A stretch of DNA of 64,000 nt, from the NCBI GenBank assembly GCA_001829315.1, contig MIAY01000014.1, positions 60,801 to 124,800 of the forward strand, given 5' to 3'. This stretch comes from Spirochaetes bacterium GWE1_32_154. Lineage in GTDB: Bacteria > Spirochaetota > GWE2-31-10. The position numbers and the translations under genes are program-made. How positions within the stretch are numbered: position 1 is the first letter of the stretch; the number at the start of each line of letters is the position of its first letter. The notes under the pieces were generated by a model. The model was given only the letters and a program-made list of their open reading frames with translations, did not search any database and had not been told where the DNA came from. This document shows positions 41,256 to 50,298 of this stretch, in pieces.

Positions 41256-42656
41256 TTAACTATTTTCGTCAAGTAAATTTGATCGCACCATTTCCTCGGT
41301 ATCCGCCTGCATTGTACTATTAATTTTTCCTTTTATCCACTTCCCGCTTCTAAATCTATAAAAAAATATCACTGACTTTGAAATTTCCTCAATAGTCATC
41401 GCCGTAAATATACCGACAATACCTAATTGGAATACCGGTCCGGCTAAAAATGTTAATGGTAATCCAATCATTACAAATGCTATAAATGATGTAAAAAAAG
41501 GAAATTTTGTATCTTTTCCTGCCCGTATTGCTGCCGGTAAAACGCCATTTGCCGTAGCAAACGGTTGTCGCAAACCAAGTATAATTATTGTAATTATACA
41601 AAATCTAACCGATTGTGCTTCGAGTTTAAAAATACCGGGAATAAGCGGAGAAAATAAAATTATCAACACACCTGCTACTGCACCAAACAGCATAGAAAAC
41701 CACAACGCTTTATAGCCGAATTTCATTGCCTTATCTGATTTGCCTGCACCAATTATCTGACTCACACTTACCCCTGTCCCTGTTACAAACCCGCTTACTG
41801 TTAAGTATAATACAGAAAAAAACAAACCGATTACACCATAAATAGCAACAGCTTCCTTACCCGCCATACCAATGAATTTTAAATAAACCATCATAGCAAA
41901 CTGCCAGAAAAACATATCACCCAGAACCGGTAACCCGATATGCAATATTTCTTTGATATTACTCATTGCAGGCCTTACAATGCTTTGTAACGACGGTAAT
42001 CGACCTGTTCTGACCGCAACTATATACATATATAATAAACCGGTTAATGTCGAAATTAAAGACGACCATGCAGCACCCGAAACACCCAGTTTTGGAAAAC
42101 CGAAATTTCCGAATATCAGCAGATAATTAAATATGACATTTAAAACCGTCGTAATAACCTGCTGGTAAAAAGGAATTTTTGTGTCCCCCTGGGATGTAAA
42201 TATTACCGACATTCCAATACTGATTCCGGTGAACACAAAACAAATTGCAATAACACGCATATACTCAGCAGAATACTGTATAATTTTAGCATCACTGATA
42301 ATTATAGCTGCTGATACTCTGCTACCGAAAAACATAATTAAACCAAAAAGTAATGAAATAAGCGTTGAAATAAATAAAGTCACTCCACAAACATTATAAA
42401 ATTCTTTTTTATCCCCCCGCCCCCACAACTGCCCGGCGATTATTGACCCTGCATTTGAAAATGCAAATAAAAGAACAATAAAAAAGAAAAAATAACTTGT
42501 AGAAATCCTTAACGCAGCCATATAATCAGGCCCCAGCACTCCAACCATAAAATTATCTGTTAATCCGACAATATTCCTCAATAAAACCTGAAGAGTAATC
42601 GGGAAGGTAAAAATAAGAAATTTCTTTAATTTAAAATCCTCTTGAATAGTGTGCAT
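41256..42656 (-). CDS. MATE-family multidrug/efflux transporter
   Basis: 466 aa; 12 predicted TM helices with duplicated MATE-like halves. Confidence 0.75.
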   Translation of the reverse strand: MHTIQEDFKLKKFLIFTFPITLQVLLRNIVGLTDNFMVGVLGPDYMAALRISTSYFFFFIVLLFAFSNAGSIIAGQLWGRGDKKEFYNVCGVTLFISTLISLLFGLIMFFGSRVSAAIIISDAKIIQYSAEYMRVIAICFVFTGISIGMSVIFTSQGDTKIPFYQQVITTVLNVIFNYLLIFGNFGFPKLGVSGAAWSSLISTLTGLLYMYIVAVRTGRLPSLQSIVRPAMSNIKEILHIGLPVLGDMFFWQFAMMVYLKFIGMAGKEAVAIYGVIGLFFSVLYLTVSGFVTGTGVSVSQIIGAGKSDKAMKFGYKALWFSMLFGAVAGVLIILFSPLIPGIFKLEAQSVRFCIITIIILGLRQPFATANGVLPAAIRAGKDTKFPFFTSFIAFVMIGLPLTFLAGPVFQLGIVGIFTAMTIEEISKSVIFFYRFRSGKWIKGKINSTMQADTEEMVRSNLLDENS

Positions 42657-42753
42657 TGTATACCTTTGTATTGAATTTTTGATTATTTTATTATACTATA
42701 ATTTTAATATACTGAATGTGACATTAATCAAATAATTAAAATAAGGGAAAAAT

Positions 42754-43107
42754 ATGGAAACTTTCATTTTAGTACGGCCTGAGCATCTTAATCACTACGG
42801 CTATTTATTTGGCGGTATGATGTTAAAATGGGTCGATGAATTTGCATGGATTGCCGCATCTAAGGAGTTTACAGGAGCGAAACTTGTTACAATCGCAATG
42901 AACAATATATTATTTAAAGAGCGTGTCGTTAATGGTTCAATTCTCCGCTTTCATATCAATCTGGCAAAAAAAGGAACTACATCGGTTGAATATGCTGTTG
43001 ATGTATACGCTGATGAACCCGATAATCAAATTGAAAAAAAAGTATTCTCAACAAGCATCACATTTGTTAATATCAATGAACATGGAGAAAAATTAAAAAT
43101 TATTTAG
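42754..43107 (+). CDS. Acyl-CoA thioesterase (hotdog fold)
   Basis: 117 aa; ILVRPEHLNHYGYLFGGMMLKWVDE motif typical of YciA/4HBT-type thioesterases. Confidence 0.8.
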   Translation: METFILVRPEHLNHYGYLFGGMMLKWVDEFAWIAASKEFTGAKLVTIAMNNILFKERVVNGSILRFHINLAKKGTTSVEYAVDVYADEPDNQIEKKVFSTSITFVNINEHGEKLKII

Positions 43108-43909
43108 CACCGATACGTCTTTTCCACTCCCACAGTACAATTGAAATTGAAACTGATGCATTTAATGATTCTACACCACTTTGCATCGGAATAGATATTG
43201 CCATATTCCGGACTTTCTGTGGTAATCCCTGACCTTCAACACCGGGAAGTAAAATAAAATTCTCGGGAAATGAGAAGTGGGATAAGTCACGTCCTTTCAT
43301 ATCAAGGGTAATAAGATTAGAATATGATTTTGTGTTACTGATAATTTCATCCAATGACGGTCCATACAGTAGTTTAACTTTAAAAACAGTACCCGATGAT
43401 GCACGAATTGATTTGGGATGAAAAGGATTAGCAGCTTCTTTCAACAAAACAACCCTGCCAGCCCCCATCGCAGCAGCACTCCTTATAGCAGAACCTATAT
43501 TAACCGGATTTTGAAATGGTAATAAAACAGTACAACCAGCTAATGTTTTATCATTCCATTTATCTAAATTTGGTAATGCAGCAATTAAAAGCGGTGATTT
43601 AGTTCTAAATATATCAAGTTCATTGAATAATATTTTACTAAGCACAATAAGAGCATTTTTATTTTTATACGATGCAATACAATCTAATAATTCTTTATCG
43701 GTTTCTTTATAATCTTCATGTACTATCAATTCCATAGACTTCACACAATTTTCTCTAAGTAACTCAAGTATTATCTTTTTCCCTGATATGAGGATTTTAT
43801 TATTTTTTACAATACCGGCATTTTCAGATAATGATTTTATTTCTTTAAATTTAGTGTTTTCTTTTGATGTTATCGTTTCAGAATTATTCATACATAAGCT
43901 CCATGTCAT
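43100..43909 (-). CDS. SpoU/TrmH-family RNA 2'-O-methyltransferase
   Basis: 269 aa; SPOUT motifs (GSAIRSAAAMGA, LLPGVEGQG, SLNASVSISIVL). Confidence 0.8.
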   Translation of the reverse strand: MTWSLCMNNSETITSKENTKFKEIKSLSENAGIVKNNKILISGKKIILELLRENCVKSMELIVHEDYKETDKELLDCIASYKNKNALIVLSKILFNELDIFRTKSPLLIAALPNLDKWNDKTLAGCTVLLPFQNPVNIGSAIRSAAAMGAGRVVLLKEAANPFHPKSIRASSGTVFKVKLLYGPSLDEIISNTKSYSNLITLDMKGRDLSHFSFPENFILLPGVEGQGLPQKVRNMAISIPMQSGVESLNASVSISIVLWEWKRRIGAK

Positions 43910-44074: not shown

Positions 44075-44149
44075 CGGGATGTGGCCTAGTCCGGTTATGG
44101 CGTCTGGCTTGGGACCAGAAGATCGGGGGTTCGAATCCCTCCATCCCGA
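44075..44149 (+). tRNA. tRNA-Pro (anticodon TGG)
   Basis: Hand-folded cloverleaf: acceptor CGGGATG/CATCCCG, anticodon loop CTTGGGA, T-loop TTCGAAT. Confidence 0.85.
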
Positions 44150-44153
44150 ATTT

Positions 44154-44227
44154 GCGCCAGTAGCTCAGTTGGATAGAGCAACAGCCTTCTAAGCTGTGGG
44201 TCAGGAGTTCGATTCTTCTCTGGCGCA
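44154..44227 (+). tRNA. tRNA-Arg (anticodon TCT)
   Basis: Acceptor GCGCCAG/CTGGCGC, anticodon stem ACAGC/GCTGT with loop CTTCTAA, T-loop TTCGATT. Confidence 0.85.
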
Positions 44228-44240
44228 TTCTCAATTTTAT

Positions 44241-44313
44241 GGTGGATGTAGTTCAGTGGTAGAGCGCCAGATTGTGATTCTGGTTGTCGTGGGTTCAAAC
44301 CCCATCATTCACC
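44241..44313 (+). tRNA. tRNA-His (anticodon GTG)
   Basis: Anticodon stem CCAGA/TCTGG with loop TTGTGAT, T-loop TTCAAAC, encoded 5' G(-1) and discriminator C. Confidence 0.8.
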
Positions 44314-44319
44314 CAACAC

Positions 44320-44393
44320 GCGTCCGTGGCTCAGCTGGATAGAGTAGCGGACTTCGAATCCGTCGGTCGCAGGTTCGAATCCTGCCGGGCGCA
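44320..44393 (+). tRNA. tRNA-Arg (anticodon TCG)
   Basis: Acceptor GCGTCCG/CGGGCGC, anticodon loop CTTCGAA, T-loop TTCGAAT. Confidence 0.8.
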
Positions 44394-44400
44394 TGATTTT

Positions 44401-44473
44401 GGGCCGTTAGCTCAGTTGGTAGAGCAGCAGACTCTTAATCTGCGGGTCAAAGGTTCGACCCCTTTACGGCTCA
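44401..44473 (+). tRNA. tRNA-Lys (anticodon CTT)
   Basis: Acceptor GGGCCGT/ACGGCTC, anticodon stem GCAGA/TCTGC with loop CTCTTAA, T-loop TTCGACC. Confidence 0.8.
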
Positions 44474-44485
44474 TGTTTATTTATT

Positions 44486-44566
44486 GCGAGCGTGGTGAAA
44501 TTGGTAGACACGCTAGACTTAGGATCTAGTGCCTTTGGTATAGGAGTTCGAGTCTCCTCGCTCGCA
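44486..44566 (+). tRNA. tRNA-Leu (anticodon TAG), long variable arm
   Basis: Acceptor GCGAGCG/CGCTCGC, anticodon stem CTAGA/TCTAG with loop CTTAGGA, extended variable arm, T-loop TTCGAGT. Confidence 0.8.
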
Positions 44567-44580
44567 TTTTTTTTATTTAC

Positions 44581-44653
44581 GCGAGAATAGCTCAGTTGGT
44601 AGAGCGCAACCTTGCCAAGGTTGATGTCGAGAGTTCGAGTCTCTTTTCTCGCT
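44581..44653 (+). tRNA. tRNA-Gly (anticodon GCC), copy 1
   Basis: Acceptor GCGAGAA/TTCTCGC, anticodon stem CAACC/GGTTG with loop TTGCCAA, T-loop TTCGAGT. Confidence 0.85.
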
Positions 44654-44721
44654 CATTCCGGTACTGTCATTTTTGATATTTACCGGACAAACAGTCACTT
44701 TTTGTGATAAAACAAACATAC

Positions 44722-44794
44722 GCGAGAATAGCTCAGTTGGTAGAGCGCAACCTTGCCAAGGTTGATGTCGAGAGTTCGAGTCTCTTTTCTCGCT
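44722..44794 (+). tRNA. tRNA-Gly (anticodon GCC), copy 2 (identical to copy 1)
   Basis: Exact repeat of the 73-nt sequence at 44581-44653, separated by a 68-nt spacer. Confidence 0.85.
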
Positions 44795-44796
44795 TT

Positions 44797-44830
44797 GTAG
44801 CGGTAAGTTAATCTTACCGCTTTTTTTATT
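44797..44830 (+). terminator. Intrinsic terminator closing the tRNA cluster
   Basis: Hairpin AGCGGTAAG-ttaat-CTTACCGCT followed by a T-run. Confidence 0.75.
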
Positions 44831-44896
44831 TTTAAATATAATCCACCTGTATTTCGACTATTTATATTCAAATAAATTTATATACAACTTGACAAA

Positions 44897-44941
44897 TGAC
44901 ACGTGTCATATTATATATAACACATATTATGACACATGTCA
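44897..44941. promoter_or_regulatory. Two copies of a 12-bp palindrome TGACACGTGTCA (second copy TGACACATGTCA), candidate TetR-type operator pair
   Basis: Perfect palindrome at 44897-44908 and one-mismatch copy at 44930-44941, centres 33 bp apart, immediately upstream of the QueG-like/TetR gene pair. Confidence 0.5.
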
Positions 44942-44962
44942 CAATGTTCTTCAGGGGATAAA

Positions 44963-46009
44963 ATGAAAACAAAAAATGAAATAAAATTTACTGCTTTTCT
45001 AAAAAGATATCCGGAAAAATTCTTACTATCAGGAAAAAACTCGGTAATGGATGGATTCGAATATTTTGAAACTTCTGAATATAAAAACAAACCGGGAGCT
45101 ATTTTAAGTCGCCCGAAAGCAATGATAACTAATAAAAGTGTTAAAGATATAATACGAATAGGAATGACATTTATTACAATTCTTCCATGTATGCTAAAAA
45201 ATATTAAAAAAAACTATACAGATATGAATGGATATTTAAAATCCGTTAAAAATGGTTCTTTTAATAATGTTTCTATTGAAAATAACAACTCATATCCCAA
45301 TAAAAACGTATGGGTAGAACTGAAGAATTATGCCTGGGAAAACCATCAGTTAATAGTCGGATTTACAGAACTGCCACAGGAATATGTATTCAGTGGTAAA
45401 GCATCACCTTTTAGACATGCATTAGTTTTTGCACAGGAAATGAAAAAAGAACCAATTGAAAAAGCTCCTGAGTTGGATGCTGGAATTGAAGTAATGAGAG
45501 TATACAACTCTTTAGGTATTGCAACAAACGATATTGCCAATTGGTTGAGAAAAACATACAATGTTGTTTGTATGGCAAATCATCCTTTAGGGGGATTGGT
45601 TGATACAGTGCCTCTTGCAGAAAAAGCCGGCCTAGGCGCTATCGGAAAACATGGAATGTTAATTACTAAAGAATTCGGCCCCCGCTGTCGAATATCACCA
45701 CTATTTACTGAGCTAAAACTTTTTGAATACACGGGTTCTCATGAACATTCATGGATCAATACATTCTGTTCAAAATGCAGACATTGCATTAGTTCATGCC
45801 CTACTTCAGCTATATATTCTGAATCAAAACTTTCAAAAAGGTATAATAAAATCGGTTTAAAAGATCGTTACGAAAATTATGATAGAGAAAAATGCTTTAC
45901 TTCTTTCGCAGCAACAATGGGATGTGCAGTTTGTATAAGCGTCTGCCCTTTTTCAAAAAATCCGGCTATCTACGATACAATGAAGTTAAAATATACAAAT
46001 ACAAATTAA
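44963..46009 (+). CDS. QueG-like/reductive-dehalogenase-like iron-sulfur protein (two 4Fe-4S ferredoxin motifs)
   Basis: GLGAIGKHGMLITKEFG motif resembling epoxyqueuosine reductase, CSKCRHCISSCP and CAVCISVCPF cluster motifs; start placed at ATG 44963 (AGGGGA upstream) rather than the ORF-track ATG 44936, which lies inside the palindrome. Confidence 0.6.
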   Translation: MKTKNEIKFTAFLKRYPEKFLLSGKNSVMDGFEYFETSEYKNKPGAILSRPKAMITNKSVKDIIRIGMTFITILPCMLKNIKKNYTDMNGYLKSVKNGSFNNVSIENNNSYPNKNVWVELKNYAWENHQLIVGFTELPQEYVFSGKASPFRHALVFAQEMKKEPIEKAPELDAGIEVMRVYNSLGIATNDIANWLRKTYNVVCMANHPLGGLVDTVPLAEKAGLGAIGKHGMLITKEFGPRCRISPLFTELKLFEYTGSHEHSWINTFCSKCRHCISSCPTSAIYSESKLSKRYNKIGLKDRYENYDREKCFTSFAATMGCAVCISVCPFSKNPAIYDTMKLKYTNTN

Positions 46010-46018
46010 GGATAAAAA

Positions 46019-46639
46019 ATGCCACAGGATACTTTCTTTAATTTACATGAAGAAAAACGGGATAAAGTTCTTCAAGCAATAATAAATGAATTCACAAAAG
46101 TAACGTTAGAAAATGCGTCTATAAAAAACATAGTGCAAAACGCCGGAATCCCACGGGGTAGTTTTTACCAATACTTTATTGATAAAGAAGATGCCATGCG
46201 ATACATAATTTTCAATACATGCATACAGGAAGAAAAAAATGTTACCAGAGATACAAATTTCGAGCCTGGTGATTTATATGATTTTATTCTATATATCTAT
46301 AACCGGGAAATTCGATTCTTAGAGAAGAAAACAATTTCTATTCGTATGCAACTTCTTAAACAGATTTCAGAAAGTCCACGTGCAACTGCATTATTTAATG
46401 AAGAAATTACAAATGCTATAACACAAAGTGCAATGTTCAAAAAATATTGGGATATTTCCGGATTAAATCATTTAACAGAAAAAGAAAACATCACTTTAAT
46501 GGATCTATTAATTACGTCATTAAAAGAAACCTTAATTAACGTTCTTCGAGATAAAAATTGTATTACCATGGCAGAAGAACAACTCAGGTTAAAACTAATA
46601 ATAATAAAAGAAGGCGTTAGAGCAGTTTTCAAAATATAA
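46019..46639 (+). CDS. TetR/AcrR-family transcriptional regulator
   Basis: 206 aa; N-terminal helix-turn-helix region (SIKNIVQNAGIPRGSFYQYF) typical of TetR family. Confidence 0.8.
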   Translation: MPQDTFFNLHEEKRDKVLQAIINEFTKVTLENASIKNIVQNAGIPRGSFYQYFIDKEDAMRYIIFNTCIQEEKNVTRDTNFEPGDLYDFILYIYNREIRFLEKKTISIRMQLLKQISESPRATALFNEEITNAITQSAMFKKYWDISGLNHLTEKENITLMDLLITSLKETLINVLRDKNCITMAEEQLRLKLIIIKEGVRAVFKI

Positions 46640-46848
46640 GTTTAATATAAATAAATTTTATGCTAAAACAGATGAAACGGGAGAATAGCGTGGAAATTAA
46701 GAAAAATGATGATAACAAAAAAAAACCAAAAAAATTATCGTACAAAGAAGTAAGAAGAAAAAAAACAGATAATATAAAGAAAAATAAAAAACTTGCTCTG
46801 GAAAAAAAGAAAAAAAAGAAAACAAAAACCAACGAAGATGGAAATCAG

Positions 46849-49800
46849 CTAAAGCCCCTCTAAAGTCTCTTTAATAATCCTGCCTTTATCTTCGATAGTA
46901 AATTCATCATATTCACCAATCTTAATGAAAATTGAAGAGCTTTTACTTCCTTGTAGATAGACTCTTCCTTTCGATTGGGTCACCATAATCATTAATTTCC
47001 CGAAATTGATTTTATCTGATGAGTTAAATTTTATTTCAATACAATTTGATTTCTCAATAATCTCATTAACACCCATTTTCCTGCAAATTATTCGTATTTC
47101 ACCAATATATAATAATCGCTTCACATCTTCAGGAATCGGACCAAATCTATCAAGTAATAAACTCTTTATTCTATCTAAATCTTCCTCGTGAGTTATACCG
47201 GAAATTCTTTTATAGATTTCAATCTTTTCTTTAGGATCAGAAATATAACTATCCGGGATAAAACCATTATATTTAATATCAAGAAAAATATCATCATCCT
47301 CATCAACTAACTCATCAAACATTTCAGGGGTATCAGACGTCTTTTTTAACTCTTTTACAGCGTCAGTTAATAATTTACAGTATAAACTAAAACCGACGGC
47401 AAGAATATCACCATGCTGTTCAGGGCCTAACATATTACCGGCACCTCTGATTTCCATGTCTTTCATTGCAACTTTAAAACCACTACCCAACTCAGTATAC
47501 TCTGAAATTACCCGCAATTTCTTCATAGCATCCTCAGAGACAGCTACATTATCATCGTAGAACAAATATGCATACGCTTTAATATTTGACCTGCCAACAC
47601 GTCCTCTTAACTGATACAATTGAGCTAAACCAAACATATGCGCTCTATCAATAAATATAGTATTAACACGTGGAATATCAATTCCTGATTCAATAATTGT
47701 CGTTGTTAATAAAATGTCATATTTATAATTAATAAAATCATGAATAATATCTTCAAGTTCATCACCTTCCATTTGTCCGTGAGCGACAACAATTCGTGCT
47801 TGCGGAACAACGGTTTCAATATACTTTTTCATCTCGTTAATTGTCTTTACTCTATTATAGAGAAAAAACACCTGTCCTTCTCGCGCTAATTCATGTTCAA
47901 TTCCCATTTTAAGAATATCCTGATTAAACTCCATAACAAAAGTTTCAACAGGAAGACGTTCACGGGGAGGTGTATTTATTATTGACATATCACGAATTTT
48001 TGCTAAAGACATATGAAGTGTCCGTGGTATAGGCGTTGCAGTCATTGATAAACAATCAAGATTCTTTTTTACCTGTTTAATTTTTTCTTTATGCTTTACA
48101 CCAAAACGATGTTCTTCATCAATTATCAATAATCCAAGGTTTTTATAGACAACATCATCTGAAATCAACCGGTGCGTTCCTACGATTATATCAACTTCGC
48201 CATCCGCTAAGAGCTTAATAATTTTCTTTTGCTCAGCGGGTGTTCTAAAACGTGATAACATTTCCACTTTTACAGGGTAATCTGATAGTCGTAATGAAAT
48301 ATTTTCAAAATGCTGCTCGGTTAAAATTGTTGTCGGAACTAAAATTGCCACTTGCCGACCACTCATAACAGCTTTAAATGCAGCCCGAATTGCAACCTCA
48401 GTTTTTCCAAAACCGACATCCCCGCAAATTAACCGGTCCATCGGTCGATTGGATTCCATATCACGTTTAACTTCTTCTATAGTAAGTAATTGATCTTCAG
48501 TTTCATCATAAGGAAATTTAGCCTCAAACTCTTTCTGCCAGGGTGTATCGGGTAAAAATGAAATTCCTCTTTGATTTAATCTGAATGAATATAATTTCAC
48601 AAGTTCAGCAGCAAGTTTATTAACCGACTCTTTAACTTTTTCTTTAGCACGAGCCCACCCTTTTGAACCGATTTTATCAAGTTTCGGTTTTTCAAGATCA
48701 CCTGAACTATATTTTTGTACAAAATTCATTTGTTCAATAGGAATAAAAACTTTATCATCATCAGCATACAAAATAGCTATATAATCTTTTTCAACTTCCT
48801 TACTCTTTACTCTTTCAATACCAATAAATTTACCAATTCCATGATGAATATGAACAACATAATCACCCGGTTTTAAATCAATAAATGATTCGATACTTTC
48901 AGTTCTTCTCGTATAAAAATGTTTCGAAAGTTTATTTCGCTTACCAAATATTTCATAATCATTAAGAAACATTATTTTCATACTCTCAGAAATAAACCCG
49001 CTACTTAGTACAGAGGGAATAATTGAAACCCCTTCCGGCCTGAAATCATTCATATCATTTACCGGATTAAATTCATCAAATAAAACAGTAAGTCTTCCAG
49101 CTTGAGCTTCGGTAACTGCAAATATAACAATTCTGAATTTATTTTCAAGATATCGTCTTATGTCTTCTTTAAATAAGTCTAATGAACCTGCATAGGCATT
49201 AACACCTTTACAGTCAAACAAAACATTAAATGTTTCACCGGCTTTATTAAAATAATTTGCTTCTATAATTTTAAATGATTTACTATATAAATCCTGCAGG
49301 GAAAATAATAAAGCATCTGGATGAAATTTCGGTCTGTATTTATTATAACTTGCATTAAAATTCTGTGAAAATTCAATACAAATTGAATCACATCGCTTCT
49401 CAATCATATCACGATCATTAACTATAATAACAGAATCATTAACAAAATCAAGTATTGATGTTTTTTCATAGAATAAAGGAAGAAAAAAATGTTCACCATC
49501 AAATGTATTAAATTGTGATATTTTATGTTCAATATGATGTACATTTTCCTCATCACCACCAATTGTTTTCAAAACTGATAATGCATGTGATAATTCATCT
49601 TTCCCATAAAGAATCTCTTTAAAAGGTGGAATTTCTACACAATCCAATCTATCACAACTTTTTTGAGTTTCGGGATTAAAACTTTTTATTATTTCAATTT
49701 CATCATCAAAAAATTCTAACCTCACCGGGTTTCTTAATGTTGAAAAATAAATATCAACAATTTCACCACGTACGGCAAATTCACCGGGATATGTTACCTG

Positions 49801-50298
49801 TTTCACACGACTATACCCGGATTCAATTAAAAATGAAAAAAGTTGTTCAATTGGATATTTTAAACCAATTGATATTTTTAAAAAATATTTTTTAAGTACC
49901 GCTTTAGGAGTAAAAGTCAGAACTAAGGCATCAATCGTTGTTATAATTAACATCTTTTTTGAATTGATTAACCCGTTTACAACATCAAGCCTCATAGAAA
50001 CAATTTCTTCATTAACAACAGATAATTGATATGGTGTTAAACCCAGTGAAGGAAACCGGTATAAACTTTCGGTCTCCAAAGCTTCAAGATCATTATAAAC
50101 TGCTTCTAACTCATCATTATCTTTACATATAAAAAAAATAGAATTAGAATATTTTTTAATAAGATTATCAGATAATAAAGATAAAAAACTACCTGAACAT
50201 CCGCTTAATCGAATTGTTTTGTTTGAATCTATTGATTTATACAGGTTATCAAGAGATTCTGTATTAATTTTTTCATTTACCCAGTTTTTAAATCGCAT
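46849..50298 (-). CDS. mfd: Transcription-repair coupling factor Mfd
   Basis: 1149 aa; UvrB-homology N-terminal region, CarD-like RNAP-interacting domain, superfamily-2 helicase motifs (GDVGFGKTEV, DEEH), TRG motif region. Confidence 0.95.
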   Translation of the reverse strand: MRFKNWVNEKINTESLDNLYKSIDSNKTIRLSGCSGSFLSLLSDNLIKKYSNSIFFICKDNDELEAVYNDLEALETESLYRFPSLGLTPYQLSVVNEEIVSMRLDVVNGLINSKKMLIITTIDALVLTFTPKAVLKKYFLKISIGLKYPIEQLFSFLIESGYSRVKQVTYPGEFAVRGEIVDIYFSTLRNPVRLEFFDDEIEIIKSFNPETQKSCDRLDCVEIPPFKEILYGKDELSHALSVLKTIGGDEENVHHIEHKISQFNTFDGEHFFLPLFYEKTSILDFVNDSVIIVNDRDMIEKRCDSICIEFSQNFNASYNKYRPKFHPDALLFSLQDLYSKSFKIIEANYFNKAGETFNVLFDCKGVNAYAGSLDLFKEDIRRYLENKFRIVIFAVTEAQAGRLTVLFDEFNPVNDMNDFRPEGVSIIPSVLSSGFISESMKIMFLNDYEIFGKRNKLSKHFYTRRTESIESFIDLKPGDYVVHIHHGIGKFIGIERVKSKEVEKDYIAILYADDDKVFIPIEQMNFVQKYSSGDLEKPKLDKIGSKGWARAKEKVKESVNKLAAELVKLYSFRLNQRGISFLPDTPWQKEFEAKFPYDETEDQLLTIEEVKRDMESNRPMDRLICGDVGFGKTEVAIRAAFKAVMSGRQVAILVPTTILTEQHFENISLRLSDYPVKVEMLSRFRTPAEQKKIIKLLADGEVDIIVGTHRLISDDVVYKNLGLLIIDEEHRFGVKHKEKIKQVKKNLDCLSMTATPIPRTLHMSLAKIRDMSIINTPPRERLPVETFVMEFNQDILKMGIEHELAREGQVFFLYNRVKTINEMKKYIETVVPQARIVVAHGQMEGDELEDIIHDFINYKYDILLTTTIIESGIDIPRVNTIFIDRAHMFGLAQLYQLRGRVGRSNIKAYAYLFYDDNVAVSEDAMKKLRVISEYTELGSGFKVAMKDMEIRGAGNMLGPEQHGDILAVGFSLYCKLLTDAVKELKKTSDTPEMFDELVDEDDDIFLDIKYNGFIPDSYISDPKEKIEIYKRISGITHEEDLDRIKSLLLDRFGPIPEDVKRLLYIGEIRIICRKMGVNEIIEKSNCIEIKFNSSDKINFGKLMIMVTQSKGRVYLQGSKSSSIFIKIGEYDEFTIEDKGRIIKETLEGL

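What the first reader, a model, noticed from the sequence alone, without database searches (positions are those of the whole stretch)
44897..46639. Tandem 12-bp palindromes upstream of a QueG-like Fe-S protein and a TetR regulator
A perfect palindrome TGACACGTGTCA and a one-mismatch copy lie 33 bp apart immediately upstream of a two-gene unit encoding a QueG/RdhA-like double 4Fe-4S protein and a TetR-family regulator. This looks like a ligand-responsive operator controlling a reductase of unknown substrate. The longest-ORF start (44936) sits inside the second palindrome, so the real start is more likely 44963.
Basis: partly seen in the sequence, partly recalled or inferred. Interest (0 to 1): 0.5.

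Follow-up and report, generated by a model that had tools for sequence, protein, structure and literature searches.

The report
TetR-controlled RdhA-like reductase gene cassette
Two conserved 14-bp palindromes straddling the promoter are very probably the binding sites of the co-encoded TetR repressor. That repressor has the DNA-reading head of the haem sensor HrtR, and it switches a rare, uncharacterised vitamin-B12/iron-sulfur reductase related to reductive dehalogenases. The wiring is ordinary; the enzyme's substrate is unknown.

Summary
ATGACACGTGTCAT (44896-44909) lies between a TTGACA -35 and a TATATA -10. ATGACACATGTCAC (44929-44942) lies just downstream, ahead of an AGGGGA ribosome-binding site and the ATG at 44963.

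The same double operator, in the same promoter positions, precedes the orthologous gene in nine other loci with unrelated flanks (Thermotogota, Alkaliphilus, Vallitalea, MAGs). One of these has the regulator gene moved upstream.

The 206-aa TetR shares its DNA-binding domain with Lactococcus HrtR, including the DNA-contacting Arg46 and Tyr50. HrtR's proven operator, ATGACACAGTGTCAT, has the same half-site. HrtR's haem ligands His72 and His149 are absent, so the inducer is something else.

Best reading: a self-contained, autoregulated, inducer-responsive cassette for a cytoplasmic corrinoid reductase of unknown substrate. Regulation is classical. The enzyme family is rare and unnamed.

The parts
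44799..44821 (+). Intrinsic terminator closing the upstream 8-tRNA cluster. It insulates the cassette promoter from tRNA read-through.
   Evidence: 9-bp stem with 5 G-C pairs followed by TTTTTTTATTT. tRNA genes.
44889..44894 (+). -35 hexamer TTGACA
   Evidence: Read. TTGACA or a near variant occupies the same position 2-3 nt before operator 1 in the orthologous promoters.
44896..44909 (+). Operator 1: ATGACACGTGTCAT, a perfect 14-bp palindrome filling the -35/-10 spacer
   Evidence: Conserved in 10 orthologous promoters. Same half-site as the HrtR operator ATGACACAGTGTCAT.
44912..44917 (+). -10 hexamer TATATA, 17 nt after the -35
   Evidence: Read. Orthologues have TATAAT at the same offset, 3 nt after operator 1. 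The consensus scan missed it because it requires T at position 6.
44929..44942 (+). Operator 2: ATGACACATGTCAC (one central and one flank mismatch), at about +5 to +18 of the predicted transcript. It contains the spurious ATG at 44936.
   Evidence: A second site 26-34 bp after the first is present in all 10 orthologous promoters.
44953..44958 (+). Shine-Dalgarno sequence AGGGGA, 4 nt before the ATG at 44963
   Evidence: Read. GGAGG-type sites sit at the same place in orthologues.
44963..46009 (+). rdhA-like gene. It encodes a 348-aa cytoplasmic protein with a corrinoid-binding-type fold and two [4Fe-4S] motifs: C269-x2-C272-x2-C275-x3-C279-P, and C311...C321-x2-C324-x3-C328-P. Invariant Y181 and R243 align with the catalytic Tyr246 and Arg305 of PceA.
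46019..46639 (+). tetR gene encoding a 206-aa protein, 9 nt after the rdhA-like stop codon, with its own AAGGA ribosome-binding site. The DNA-binding domain is HrtR-like (invariant R46, G47, S48, F49, Y50). The C-terminal ligand domain is divergent.

Best explanation
This is a self-contained two-gene operon, rdhA-like then tetR, driven by one sigma-70-type promoter.

Proposed mechanism:
- Dimers of the TetR protein bind two 14-bp palindromes of consensus ATGACACGTGTCAT.
- One palindrome occupies the spacer between -35 and -10. The other lies just downstream of the transcription start.
- Without inducer, RNA polymerase is therefore blocked, and the repressor also limits its own synthesis.
- A small molecule bound by the divergent C-terminal domain of the TetR releases it from DNA and switches on the enzyme. 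This molecule is not haem held by HrtR's two histidines; most likely it is the enzyme's substrate or a close analogue.
- The enzyme is a cytoplasmic, ferredoxin-type-fed corrinoid/2x[4Fe-4S] reductase of the reductive-dehalogenase lineage. It most likely removes a halogen, or reduces a comparable leaving group, from a toxic or usable organic compound.

Shown: the sequence features, their conservation across genomes, homology of the TetR DNA-binding domain to HrtR with a matching half-site, and the RdhA-like fold with its cysteines and Tyr/Arg pair.

Inferred: actual binding, repression, induction, corrinoid content, and the substrate.
For: Operator and promoter:
- The anatomy can be read directly.
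- The same layout (-35, operator 1, -10, operator 2, RBS, ATG) recurs in L054 (Thermotogota), L057 and L001 (Alkaliphilus), L183 (Vallitalea), L059, L060, L061 and L062, all with unrelated flanking genes.
- In L186 the tetR gene has moved upstream, yet the two operators remain in front of the reductase gene.
- Clades of the enzyme that carry a different regulator carry a different palindrome or none of this type: MarR in L002, unrelated TetRs in L005 and L021.

TetR and the palindrome:
- The TetR profile hits L. lactis HrtR (3vok, the complex with target DNA) at E 2.5e-23 over residues 1-73.
- HrtR reads DNA through R46 and Y50 (PMC12839281). These residues are invariant in 38 relatives.
- The HrtR operator, taken from the PL(HrtO) part sequence, is ATGACACAGTGTCAT.

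Operon structure:
- The gap between the genes is 9 nt here, and the genes overlap in orthologues.
- No terminator or promoter lies between them.

Enzyme:
- Profile against PDB: PceA 1e-27 and 2e-22, QueG 1e-10.
- The AF2 model has pLDDT 92.9.
- Eight invariant cysteines.
- Y181 and R243 align to SmPceA Y246/R305 and DhPceA Y337/R396. Mutagenesis established the roles of those residues.
- No twin-arginine motif and no hydrophobic segment.
Against: - No binding, expression or activity data exist for any member.
- The operator has 14 bp, not the 15 bp of HrtO, so the dimer geometry must differ somewhat.
- A large group of other TetRs with the same IPRGSFYQYF helix has no ATGACAC palindrome near its own genes. 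The helix motif alone therefore does not predict the site.
- Pairs of TGACACRTGTCA also occur in many unrelated metagenomic contexts, mostly satellite repeats.
- Spacing between the two sites varies from 26 to 34 bp, so cooperative binding in a fixed phase is unlikely.
- The enzyme falls below the curated cut-offs of both RDH (69 against 160 bits) and QueG (60 against 200), and it has no PF13486 hit.
- Its first 150 or so residues have no sequence match to anything known, and PceA Asn272 is replaced by Gly.
- The dehalogenase chemistry is therefore a guess from two residues and a fold.
Confidence: 0.7

Rival explanations
1. The Fe-S protein is the organism's epoxyqueuosine reductase (QueG), a housekeeping tRNA-modification enzyme, as some database records name its relatives.
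For: Some homologues are labelled 'epoxyqueuosine reductase' by their sources. The C-terminal 130 residues match TIGR00276 at E 1.6e-16. QueG structures are significant fold matches.
Confidence: 0.04
2. The enzyme is a respiratory reductive dehalogenase used for organohalide respiration.
For: The best sequence and fold matches are the respiratory PceA enzymes.
Against: There is no twin-arginine signal in any of 38 family members and no transmembrane segment. No rdhB-like membrane anchor gene is present: the neighbours are tRNA genes and tetR. The protein is 100-150 residues shorter than PceA, and TIGR02486 scores below its cut-off.
Confidence: 0.05
3. The TetR is a true HrtR orthologue that senses haem (or another tetrapyrrole such as a corrinoid), so the cassette responds to tetrapyrrole load rather than to the enzyme's substrate.
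For: The DNA-binding domain and operator half-site are those of HrtR. The partner enzyme is predicted to use a corrinoid, so a tetrapyrrole signal is conceivable.
Against: HrtR's haem ligands are not conserved: His72 aligns to Glu and His149 to Phe. No histidine is invariant in the C-terminal domain of 8 or 38 relatives. The modelled structure matches HrtR no better than generic TetRs, with TM 0.46. No hrtBA-type ABC exporter is linked.
Confidence: 0.08
4. The palindromes are not operators of the adjacent TetR. They are chance repeats, restriction/methylation sites (CACGTG core), RNA hairpins, or sites for some other global regulator.
For: CACGTG-centred palindromes occur widely, and the double pattern is found in many unrelated metagenomic contigs. 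A loose shuffle test is not significant.
Against: The composition-based expectation for this pair is 1.3e-7. Both sites keep their exact promoter positions in 10 loci from different phyla while the surrounding intergenic sequence diverges. The sites travel with the tetR gene: clades with MarR or other TetRs lack them. Site 1 lies upstream of the transcription start, so it cannot act as RNA.
Confidence: 0.05

Closest known systems
HrtR and its hrtO operator (Lactococcus lactis haem-efflux regulator; PDB 3vok, 3vox, 3vp5)
   Same: Both are TetR-family repressors with near-identical N-terminal DNA-binding domains (MPxxTYFxL...IPRGSFYQYF) and the same DNA-contacting Arg46 and Tyr50. The operator half-site is the same (ATGACAC). 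Both autoregulate, because the regulator gene lies in the operon it controls.
   Different: HrtO is a 15-bp palindrome with a central A, whereas here the sites are 14 bp and there are two per promoter. The haem ligands His72 and His149 are absent and the C-terminal domain is not specifically similar. The target is a corrinoid reductase gene, not the HrtBA ABC exporter, and tetR is the last gene rather than the first.
Reductive dehalogenase catalytic subunits: PceA (4uqu, 8q4h) and the cytosolic NpRdhA (4ras, 6zxu)
   Different: About 20% identity. The protein has 348 residues, against 460-700. It has no PF13486 hit and scores below the TIGR02486 cut-off. It has its own conserved N-terminal region with an EGFEYF motif, no fused NAD(P)H reductase module, and Gly in place of PceA Asn272.
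Epoxyqueuosine reductase QueG (5d08, 5d6s)
   Same: Same superfamily, cytoplasmic, similar length, and the same Fe-S module.
'Cytosolic / simplified cytosolic' RdhA-like proteins from metagenome surveys (PMC12219181) and putative Asgard RDases (PMC6737245)
   Same: Short RdhA-like proteins that lack a TAT signal and RdhB, found in anaerobic sediments and often next to one-component regulators (IclR/MarR in that survey).
   Different: Those sets were defined by RdhA/PF13486 similarity and are described mainly from Desulfobacterota, Chloroflexota and Pseudomonadota. This family lacks the PF13486 hit and was not named there. I could not test whether any of its members are in those data sets.
FhtR of Enterococcus faecalis (TetR with two 14-nt palindromes in the hrtBA promoter)
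   Same: The regulatory layout is the same: two 14-nt palindromes in the -35/-10 region, each bound by a TetR dimer, with derepression by ligand.
   Different: An unrelated TetR, a different palindrome (TTATCAATCGATAA), and a regulator that is monocistronic and constitutive.

Membership tests
TetR-family repressor/operator system | N-terminal TetR-type helix-turn-helix domain | tested here: met
   PF00440 scores 26.6 bits against a cut-off of 24. The all-helical 9-10 helix model has pLDDT 92.6, and its top fold matches are TetR proteins.
TetR-family repressor/operator system | Palindromic operator overlapping the promoter of the regulated gene | tested here: met
   Two 14-bp palindromes, one in the -35/-10 spacer and one at about +5 to +18. 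They are conserved in 10 loci.
TetR-family repressor/operator system | Protein binds the operator and is released by a ligand | not testable with these tools
   This needs EMSA or footprinting and inducer screening. It is supported only by homology to HrtR.
HrtR (haem-sensing TetR) | DNA-contacting residues Arg46 and Tyr50, and an ATGACAC half-site | tested here: met
   R46 and Y50 are invariant. The half-site is identical to that of hrtO.
HrtR (haem-sensing TetR) | Haem iron ligands His72 and His149 | tested here: not met
   These positions hold Glu and Phe, and there is no invariant His in the ligand domain.
HrtR (haem-sensing TetR) | Controls the hrtBA haem-efflux ABC transporter | tested here: not met
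   No ABC transporter is present in the operon or next to it in the eight loci whose called genes were listed.
Reductive dehalogenase RdhA | Curated family models (TIGR02486 RDH; Pfam PF13486 Dehalogenase) | tested here: not met
   TIGR02486 scores 69.3 bits against a cut-off of 160. PF13486 gives no hit at E up to 0.1.
Reductive dehalogenase RdhA | Two Fe-S motifs: CxxCxxCxxxCP and (C...)CxxCxxxCP | tested here: met
   C269, C272, C275, C279 and P280, and C311, C321, C324, C328 and P329; the eight cysteines and P329 are invariant in 38 sequences, P280 in at least 90%.
Reductive dehalogenase RdhA | Corrinoid-binding core fold | tested here: met
Reductive dehalogenase RdhA | Catalytic Tyr (proton transfer) and Arg (SmPceA Y246/R305) | tested here: met
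   Profile alignments place invariant Y181 and R243 on Y246/R305 of 4uqu and on Y337/R396 of 8q4h.
Reductive dehalogenase RdhA | Respiratory type: TAT signal and an adjacent rdhB | tested here: not met
   No RR motif in 38 N-termini. The neighbours are tRNA genes and tetR.
Reductive dehalogenase RdhA | Dehalogenating activity | not testable with these tools
   No member has been characterised. The literature searches found nothing on this family.
Epoxyqueuosine reductase QueG | Equivalog model TIGR00276, with the DUF1730 N-terminal and HEAT-like C-terminal domains | tested here: not met
   60.3 bits against a cut-off of 200, with only model positions 131-255 matched. No PF08331 hit.

The most novel reading that the evidence does not exclude
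The enzyme could be a third functional branch of the corrinoid/Fe-S reductase superfamily, beside the dehalogenases and QueG. It would catalyse a reduction that is not a dehalogenation (for example of an epoxide, N-oxide or other activated group on a natural product or xenobiotic). Its dedicated TetR would be a ready-made sensor for that unknown substrate.
Probability: 0.25. Interest if true: 0.7.

Novelty: new variant of a known kind. Interest (0 to 1): 0.45.

Why it matters
Corrinoid-dependent reductases of the RdhA/QueG superfamily have only two established chemistries. Most environmental 'RdhA-like' genes have no known substrate and are hard to express.

Here a rare, compact, cytoplasmic branch comes packaged with its own repressor and a sharply defined operator. 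That repressor's DNA-binding head is the one already used in E. coli haem biosensors, in HrtR/PL(HrtO) circuits. The substrate question therefore becomes directly testable. Place a reporter behind the 44880-44962 promoter, express the TetR, and screen organohalogens and other compounds for induction. The inducer should point to the enzyme's substrate.

The cassette also corrects a recurring misannotation as epoxyqueuosine reductase. It also shows one DNA-binding head and half-site joined to different ligand domains and placed before different target genes.

If the enzyme is simply a cytoplasmic dehalogenase for detoxification, the finding is a useful but ordinary addition.

Tried and rejected
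(1) QueG identity was rejected.

(2) A respiratory RdhA was rejected: no TAT signal and no RdhB.

(3) A cobalamin or other riboswitch in the leader was looked for. Rfam finds only the tRNAs, and the leader is about 40 nt.

(4) Integration at the tRNA cluster was considered. There is no att-like partial tRNA repeat after the cassette and no G+C anomaly, so horizontal acquisition is inferred only from the differing flanks in other genomes.

(5) A scan of metagenome contigs for the double operator was meant to define a regulon. Most hits are tandem satellites. The scan was uninformative for specificity, but it turned up L142 and the actinobacterial TetR/ligase loci.

(6) A single-sequence search with the TetR found only 9 relatives; the profile search was needed.

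(7) The original HrtR papers (PMC3281666, PMC3436319) are not held. The operator sequence was instead taken from a synthetic-biology supplement, and the R46/Y50 and H72/H149 roles from a review.

Close orthologues were fetched by exact-protein look-ups instead.

(9) A paralogue or second queG in the window was looked for and none was found. The rest of the MAG could not be searched.
Full report
OBSERVATION

TGACACGTGTCA lies at 44897-44908 and TGACACATGTCA at 44930-44941, 33 bp apart start to start, directly upstream of two co-directional ORFs. With one flanking base on each side, the first site is a perfect 14-bp palindrome, ATGACACGTGTCAT (44896-44909). The second is ATGACACATGTCAC (44929-44942).

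No further copy with up to two mismatches exists in the 64-kb window. From the window's composition (29% G+C), about 1.3e-7 such pairs would be expected. Of 36 perfect 12-bp palindromes in the window, this is the only one with a near-copy within 60 bp. A generic test is weak: 48 of 300 shuffles contain some palindrome with a nearby near-copy. I did not inspect those shuffles; in DNA this A+T-rich they are presumably A+T-only pairs. I therefore rest the case on comparative data rather than on within-window statistics.

ANATOMY

The region is laid out as follows.
- A cluster of eight tRNA genes (44075-44794) ends in a good intrinsic terminator at 44799-44821.
- TTGACA follows at 44889-44894, then a 17-nt spacer filled by operator 1, then TATATA at 44912-44917.
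- Operator 2 sits roughly at +5 to +18 of the predicted transcript.
- AGGGGA lies at 44953-44958, and the ATG at 44963.

The consensus promoter scan missed this promoter only because it demands T at the last position of the -10 hexamer.

The longer ORF starting at 44936 begins inside operator 2 and has no ribosome-binding site. The N-termini of 37 homologues (MxxKxExxF), and the deposited 348-aa protein from 'Spirochaetes bacterium GWF1_31_7', agree on 44963.

The second gene (46019-46639) starts 9 nt after the first stop codon, behind an AAGGA site. No terminator or promoter is predicted between the two genes. Downstream lies an A-rich spacer and then the convergent mfd gene.

CONSERVATION OF THE CASSETTE AND ITS OPERATORS

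Exact-protein look-ups of close homologues showed the same pair of genes: a Fe-S gene immediately followed by a roughly 200-aa TetR gene, which usually overlaps it. The pair occurs in a Thermotogota MAG (L054), Alkaliphilus serpentinus (L057), A. pronyensis (L001), Vallitalea okinawensis (L183) and several unnamed assemblies (L059-L062). The flanking genes differ completely each time. In L054 a transposase fragment lies immediately downstream of the pair.

In every one of these loci the upstream region reads the same way: a -35 hexamer, 2-3 nt, operator 1, 3 nt, TATAAT, operator 2, a GGAGG-type site, then the start codon. Across 20 sites the consensus is ATGACACGTGTCAT, with eight of the 14 positions invariant. 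The distance between sites varies from 26 to 34 bp.

Three observations tie the sites to this TetR and to the reductase gene as its target.
- In L186 the enzyme is 43% identical and tetR has moved upstream of it. The two operators, now somewhat degenerate, still sit in the promoter of the reductase gene.
- In the next clade of the enzyme (L002, 46% identity) the downstream regulator is a MarR protein. The promoter there carries a different palindrome, AGTTTACTGGTAAACT.
- More distant members have unrelated TetRs in other arrangements (L005, L021) or no detectable TetR-family neighbour (the Asgard loci), and none of these palindromes.

THE REGULATOR

Pfam recognises only the TetR N-terminal domain.

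Against solved structures, the best informative match is Lactococcus lactis HrtR (3vok, 3vox, 3vp5). It scores E 4e-14 with the single sequence and 2.5e-23 with a profile of eight orthologues. The first 73 residues align almost without change, including IPRGSFYQYF. According to a recent review, HrtR represses hrtRBA by binding a 15-nt palindrome through Arg46 and Tyr50, and binds haem through His72 and His149 (PMC12839281). Entry 3vok is the complex with target DNA. Arg46 and Tyr50 are invariant in 38 relatives of the window protein.

The original HrtR papers are not in the library. The operator can still be read from the PL(HrtO) part sequence in the supplement of PMC8136830: ATGACACAGTGTCAT, present twice. 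Its half-site ATGACAC is the half-site found here. The only difference is that the two half-sites abut here (14 bp) instead of flanking a central A (15 bp). This is the strongest available evidence, short of an experiment, that the adjacent TetR reads these palindromes.

The similarity ends with the DNA-binding domain.
- His72 aligns to Glu and His149 to Phe.
- No histidine is conserved in the C-terminal domain.
- A confident model (pLDDT 92.6) matches HrtR no better than it matches generic TetRs (TM 0.46).

The inducer is thus not haem bound in the HrtR manner.

One caution applies. A much larger group of TetR_C_19 proteins shares the same recognition helix but shows no ATGACAC palindrome near its own genes. 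The helix motif alone does not dictate the site.

THE ENZYME

Pfam sees only the 4Fe-4S dicluster module at residues 269-330. NCBIfam gives sub-threshold matches to RDH (69 against 160 bits) and QueG (60 against 200 bits).

The features that point to a dehalogenase-type enzyme are these.
- All eight cluster cysteines are invariant, in the RdhA-type pattern.
- The profile alignments put the family's invariant Y181 and R243 on Tyr246 and Arg305 of the Sulfurospirillum enzyme, and on Y337 and R396 of the Desulfitobacterium enzyme. Those residues were assigned to proton transfer and its stabilisation by mutagenesis.

The features that set it apart are these.
- PceA Asn272 corresponds to Gly here.
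- There is no twin-arginine motif, no hydrophobic segment and no rdhB.
- The first 150 or so residues, with an invariant EGFEYF motif, match nothing by sequence.

The family is rare. An exhaustive profile search of 1.84 billion cluster representatives finds 223 proteins at E up to 1e-30, but only about ten full-length clusters above 350 bits. Sources label members as 'hypothetical', '4Fe-4S double cluster binding domain-containing', 'ferredoxin', or, wrongly in my view, 'epoxyqueuosine reductase'.

Metagenomic surveys have described cytosolic RdhA-like proteins without a TAT signal or RdhB, and putative Asgard dehalogenases (PMC12219181, PMC6737245). Those sets were defined through the dehalogenase domain that this family does not hit. 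I found no paper dealing with this family or with a TetR-controlled RdhA of this kind. The TetR in the Sulfurospirillum OHR region has no shown role.

MECHANISM AND CONFIDENCE

I consider it very likely (about 0.85) that the TetR represses the operon through the two palindromes and thereby autoregulates. Ligand-induced release follows from the family's general behaviour.

It is likely (about 0.7) that the enzyme binds a corrinoid and two clusters and works in the cytoplasm.

That its reaction is a reductive dehalogenation is only the best guess (about 0.5). It rests on the Tyr/Arg pair, the fold, and the detoxification-like logic of an inducible two-gene cassette that sits in a different place in every genome. 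The overall figure reported (0.7) reflects the regulatory and structural core of the statement.

VERDICT

The regulatory design is classical. What is new is modest but concrete:
- an unnamed, rare branch of the RdhA/QueG superfamily that fails both curated family definitions while keeping the dehalogenase catalytic pair;
- its coupling to an HrtR-type DNA-binding head on a new ligand domain;
- a 14-bp variant of the HrtR operator.

Its practical value is that the repressor-operator pair offers a direct route to the unknown substrate.

Noticed in passing
window 44578-44653 and 44719-44794: An exact 76-nt duplication gives two identical tRNA-Gly(GCC) genes at the end of an eight-tRNA cluster (Pro, Arg, His, Arg, Lys, Leu, Gly, Gly), immediately upstream of the cassette. 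No att-like partial repeat lies beyond the cassette.
   Followed up: partly
L142 700-636 (minus strand): A 1.5-kb metagenome contig carries the same promoter architecture (TTGACAAAA-ATGACACGTGTCAT-ATATAAT...GTGACACGTGTCAT-GGAGG-ATG). The gene behind it encodes a membrane protein, not the reductase. Its N-terminus weakly resembles RND/HpnN-type transporters (E 2e-4, far below the cut-off). This suggests the same operator type also controls an efflux-like gene elsewhere.
   Followed up: partly
L070, L103, L131 (high-G+C metagenome contigs): Two TTGACACGTGTCAA palindromes 27-29 bp apart lie between a divergent TetR-family gene and an AMP-dependent ligase-like gene. This is an unrelated TetR system that uses almost the same palindrome.
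   Followed up: partly
L187 2790-3000: A decayed copy of the cassette. The promoter and both operators are followed by only the last 40 or so codons of the reductase gene, and then by an intact tetR. A 306-aa distant paralogue of the reductase is transcribed divergently from the same intergenic region.
   Followed up: partly
L062 3783-3794: A third perfect TGACACGTGTCA lies 218 bp upstream of the reductase gene and 22 bp from the start of a divergent LacI-family gene next to an ABC transporter operon.
   Followed up: no
L063-L182 (metagenome scan): Most contigs matching two TGACACRTGTCA within 10-30 bp are tandem satellite arrays with periods of about 22-42 bp, in DNA of very varied G+C content. 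Their origin is unknown.
   Followed up: no
window 46660-46863: A lysine-rich 67-aa ORF sits in the A-rich spacer after tetR and overlaps the 3' end of the convergent mfd gene (46849-50298). It has no family hit and is probably not a gene.
   Followed up: partly
L002 3800-6510: In the neighbouring clade of the enzyme (46% identity, Tissierellales MAG) the gene is followed by a MarR regulator and then an AraC/GyrI-like regulator. Its promoter carries a different palindrome, AGTTTACTGGTAAACT. The regulator has been swapped around the same enzyme.
   Followed up: partly
proteins P0249, P0355, P0362, P0363: Several representatives of about 800-830 residues carry the family domain at their N-terminus, fused to something else. 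They were not examined.
   Followed up: no
L184 and L185 3501-4109: A very large group of roughly 200-aa TetR_C_19 proteins has the same IPRGSFYQYF recognition helix and lies next to DUF308 membrane-protein genes. No ATGACAC-type palindrome is nearby, and their operators are unknown.
   Followed up: partly
window 41256-43909: The upstream neighbours are a MatE efflux protein (41256-42656, minus strand), a 4HBT thioesterase (42754-43107) and a SpoU-type RNA methyltransferase (43100-43909, minus strand). None is conserved next to the cassette in other genomes.
   Followed up: yes
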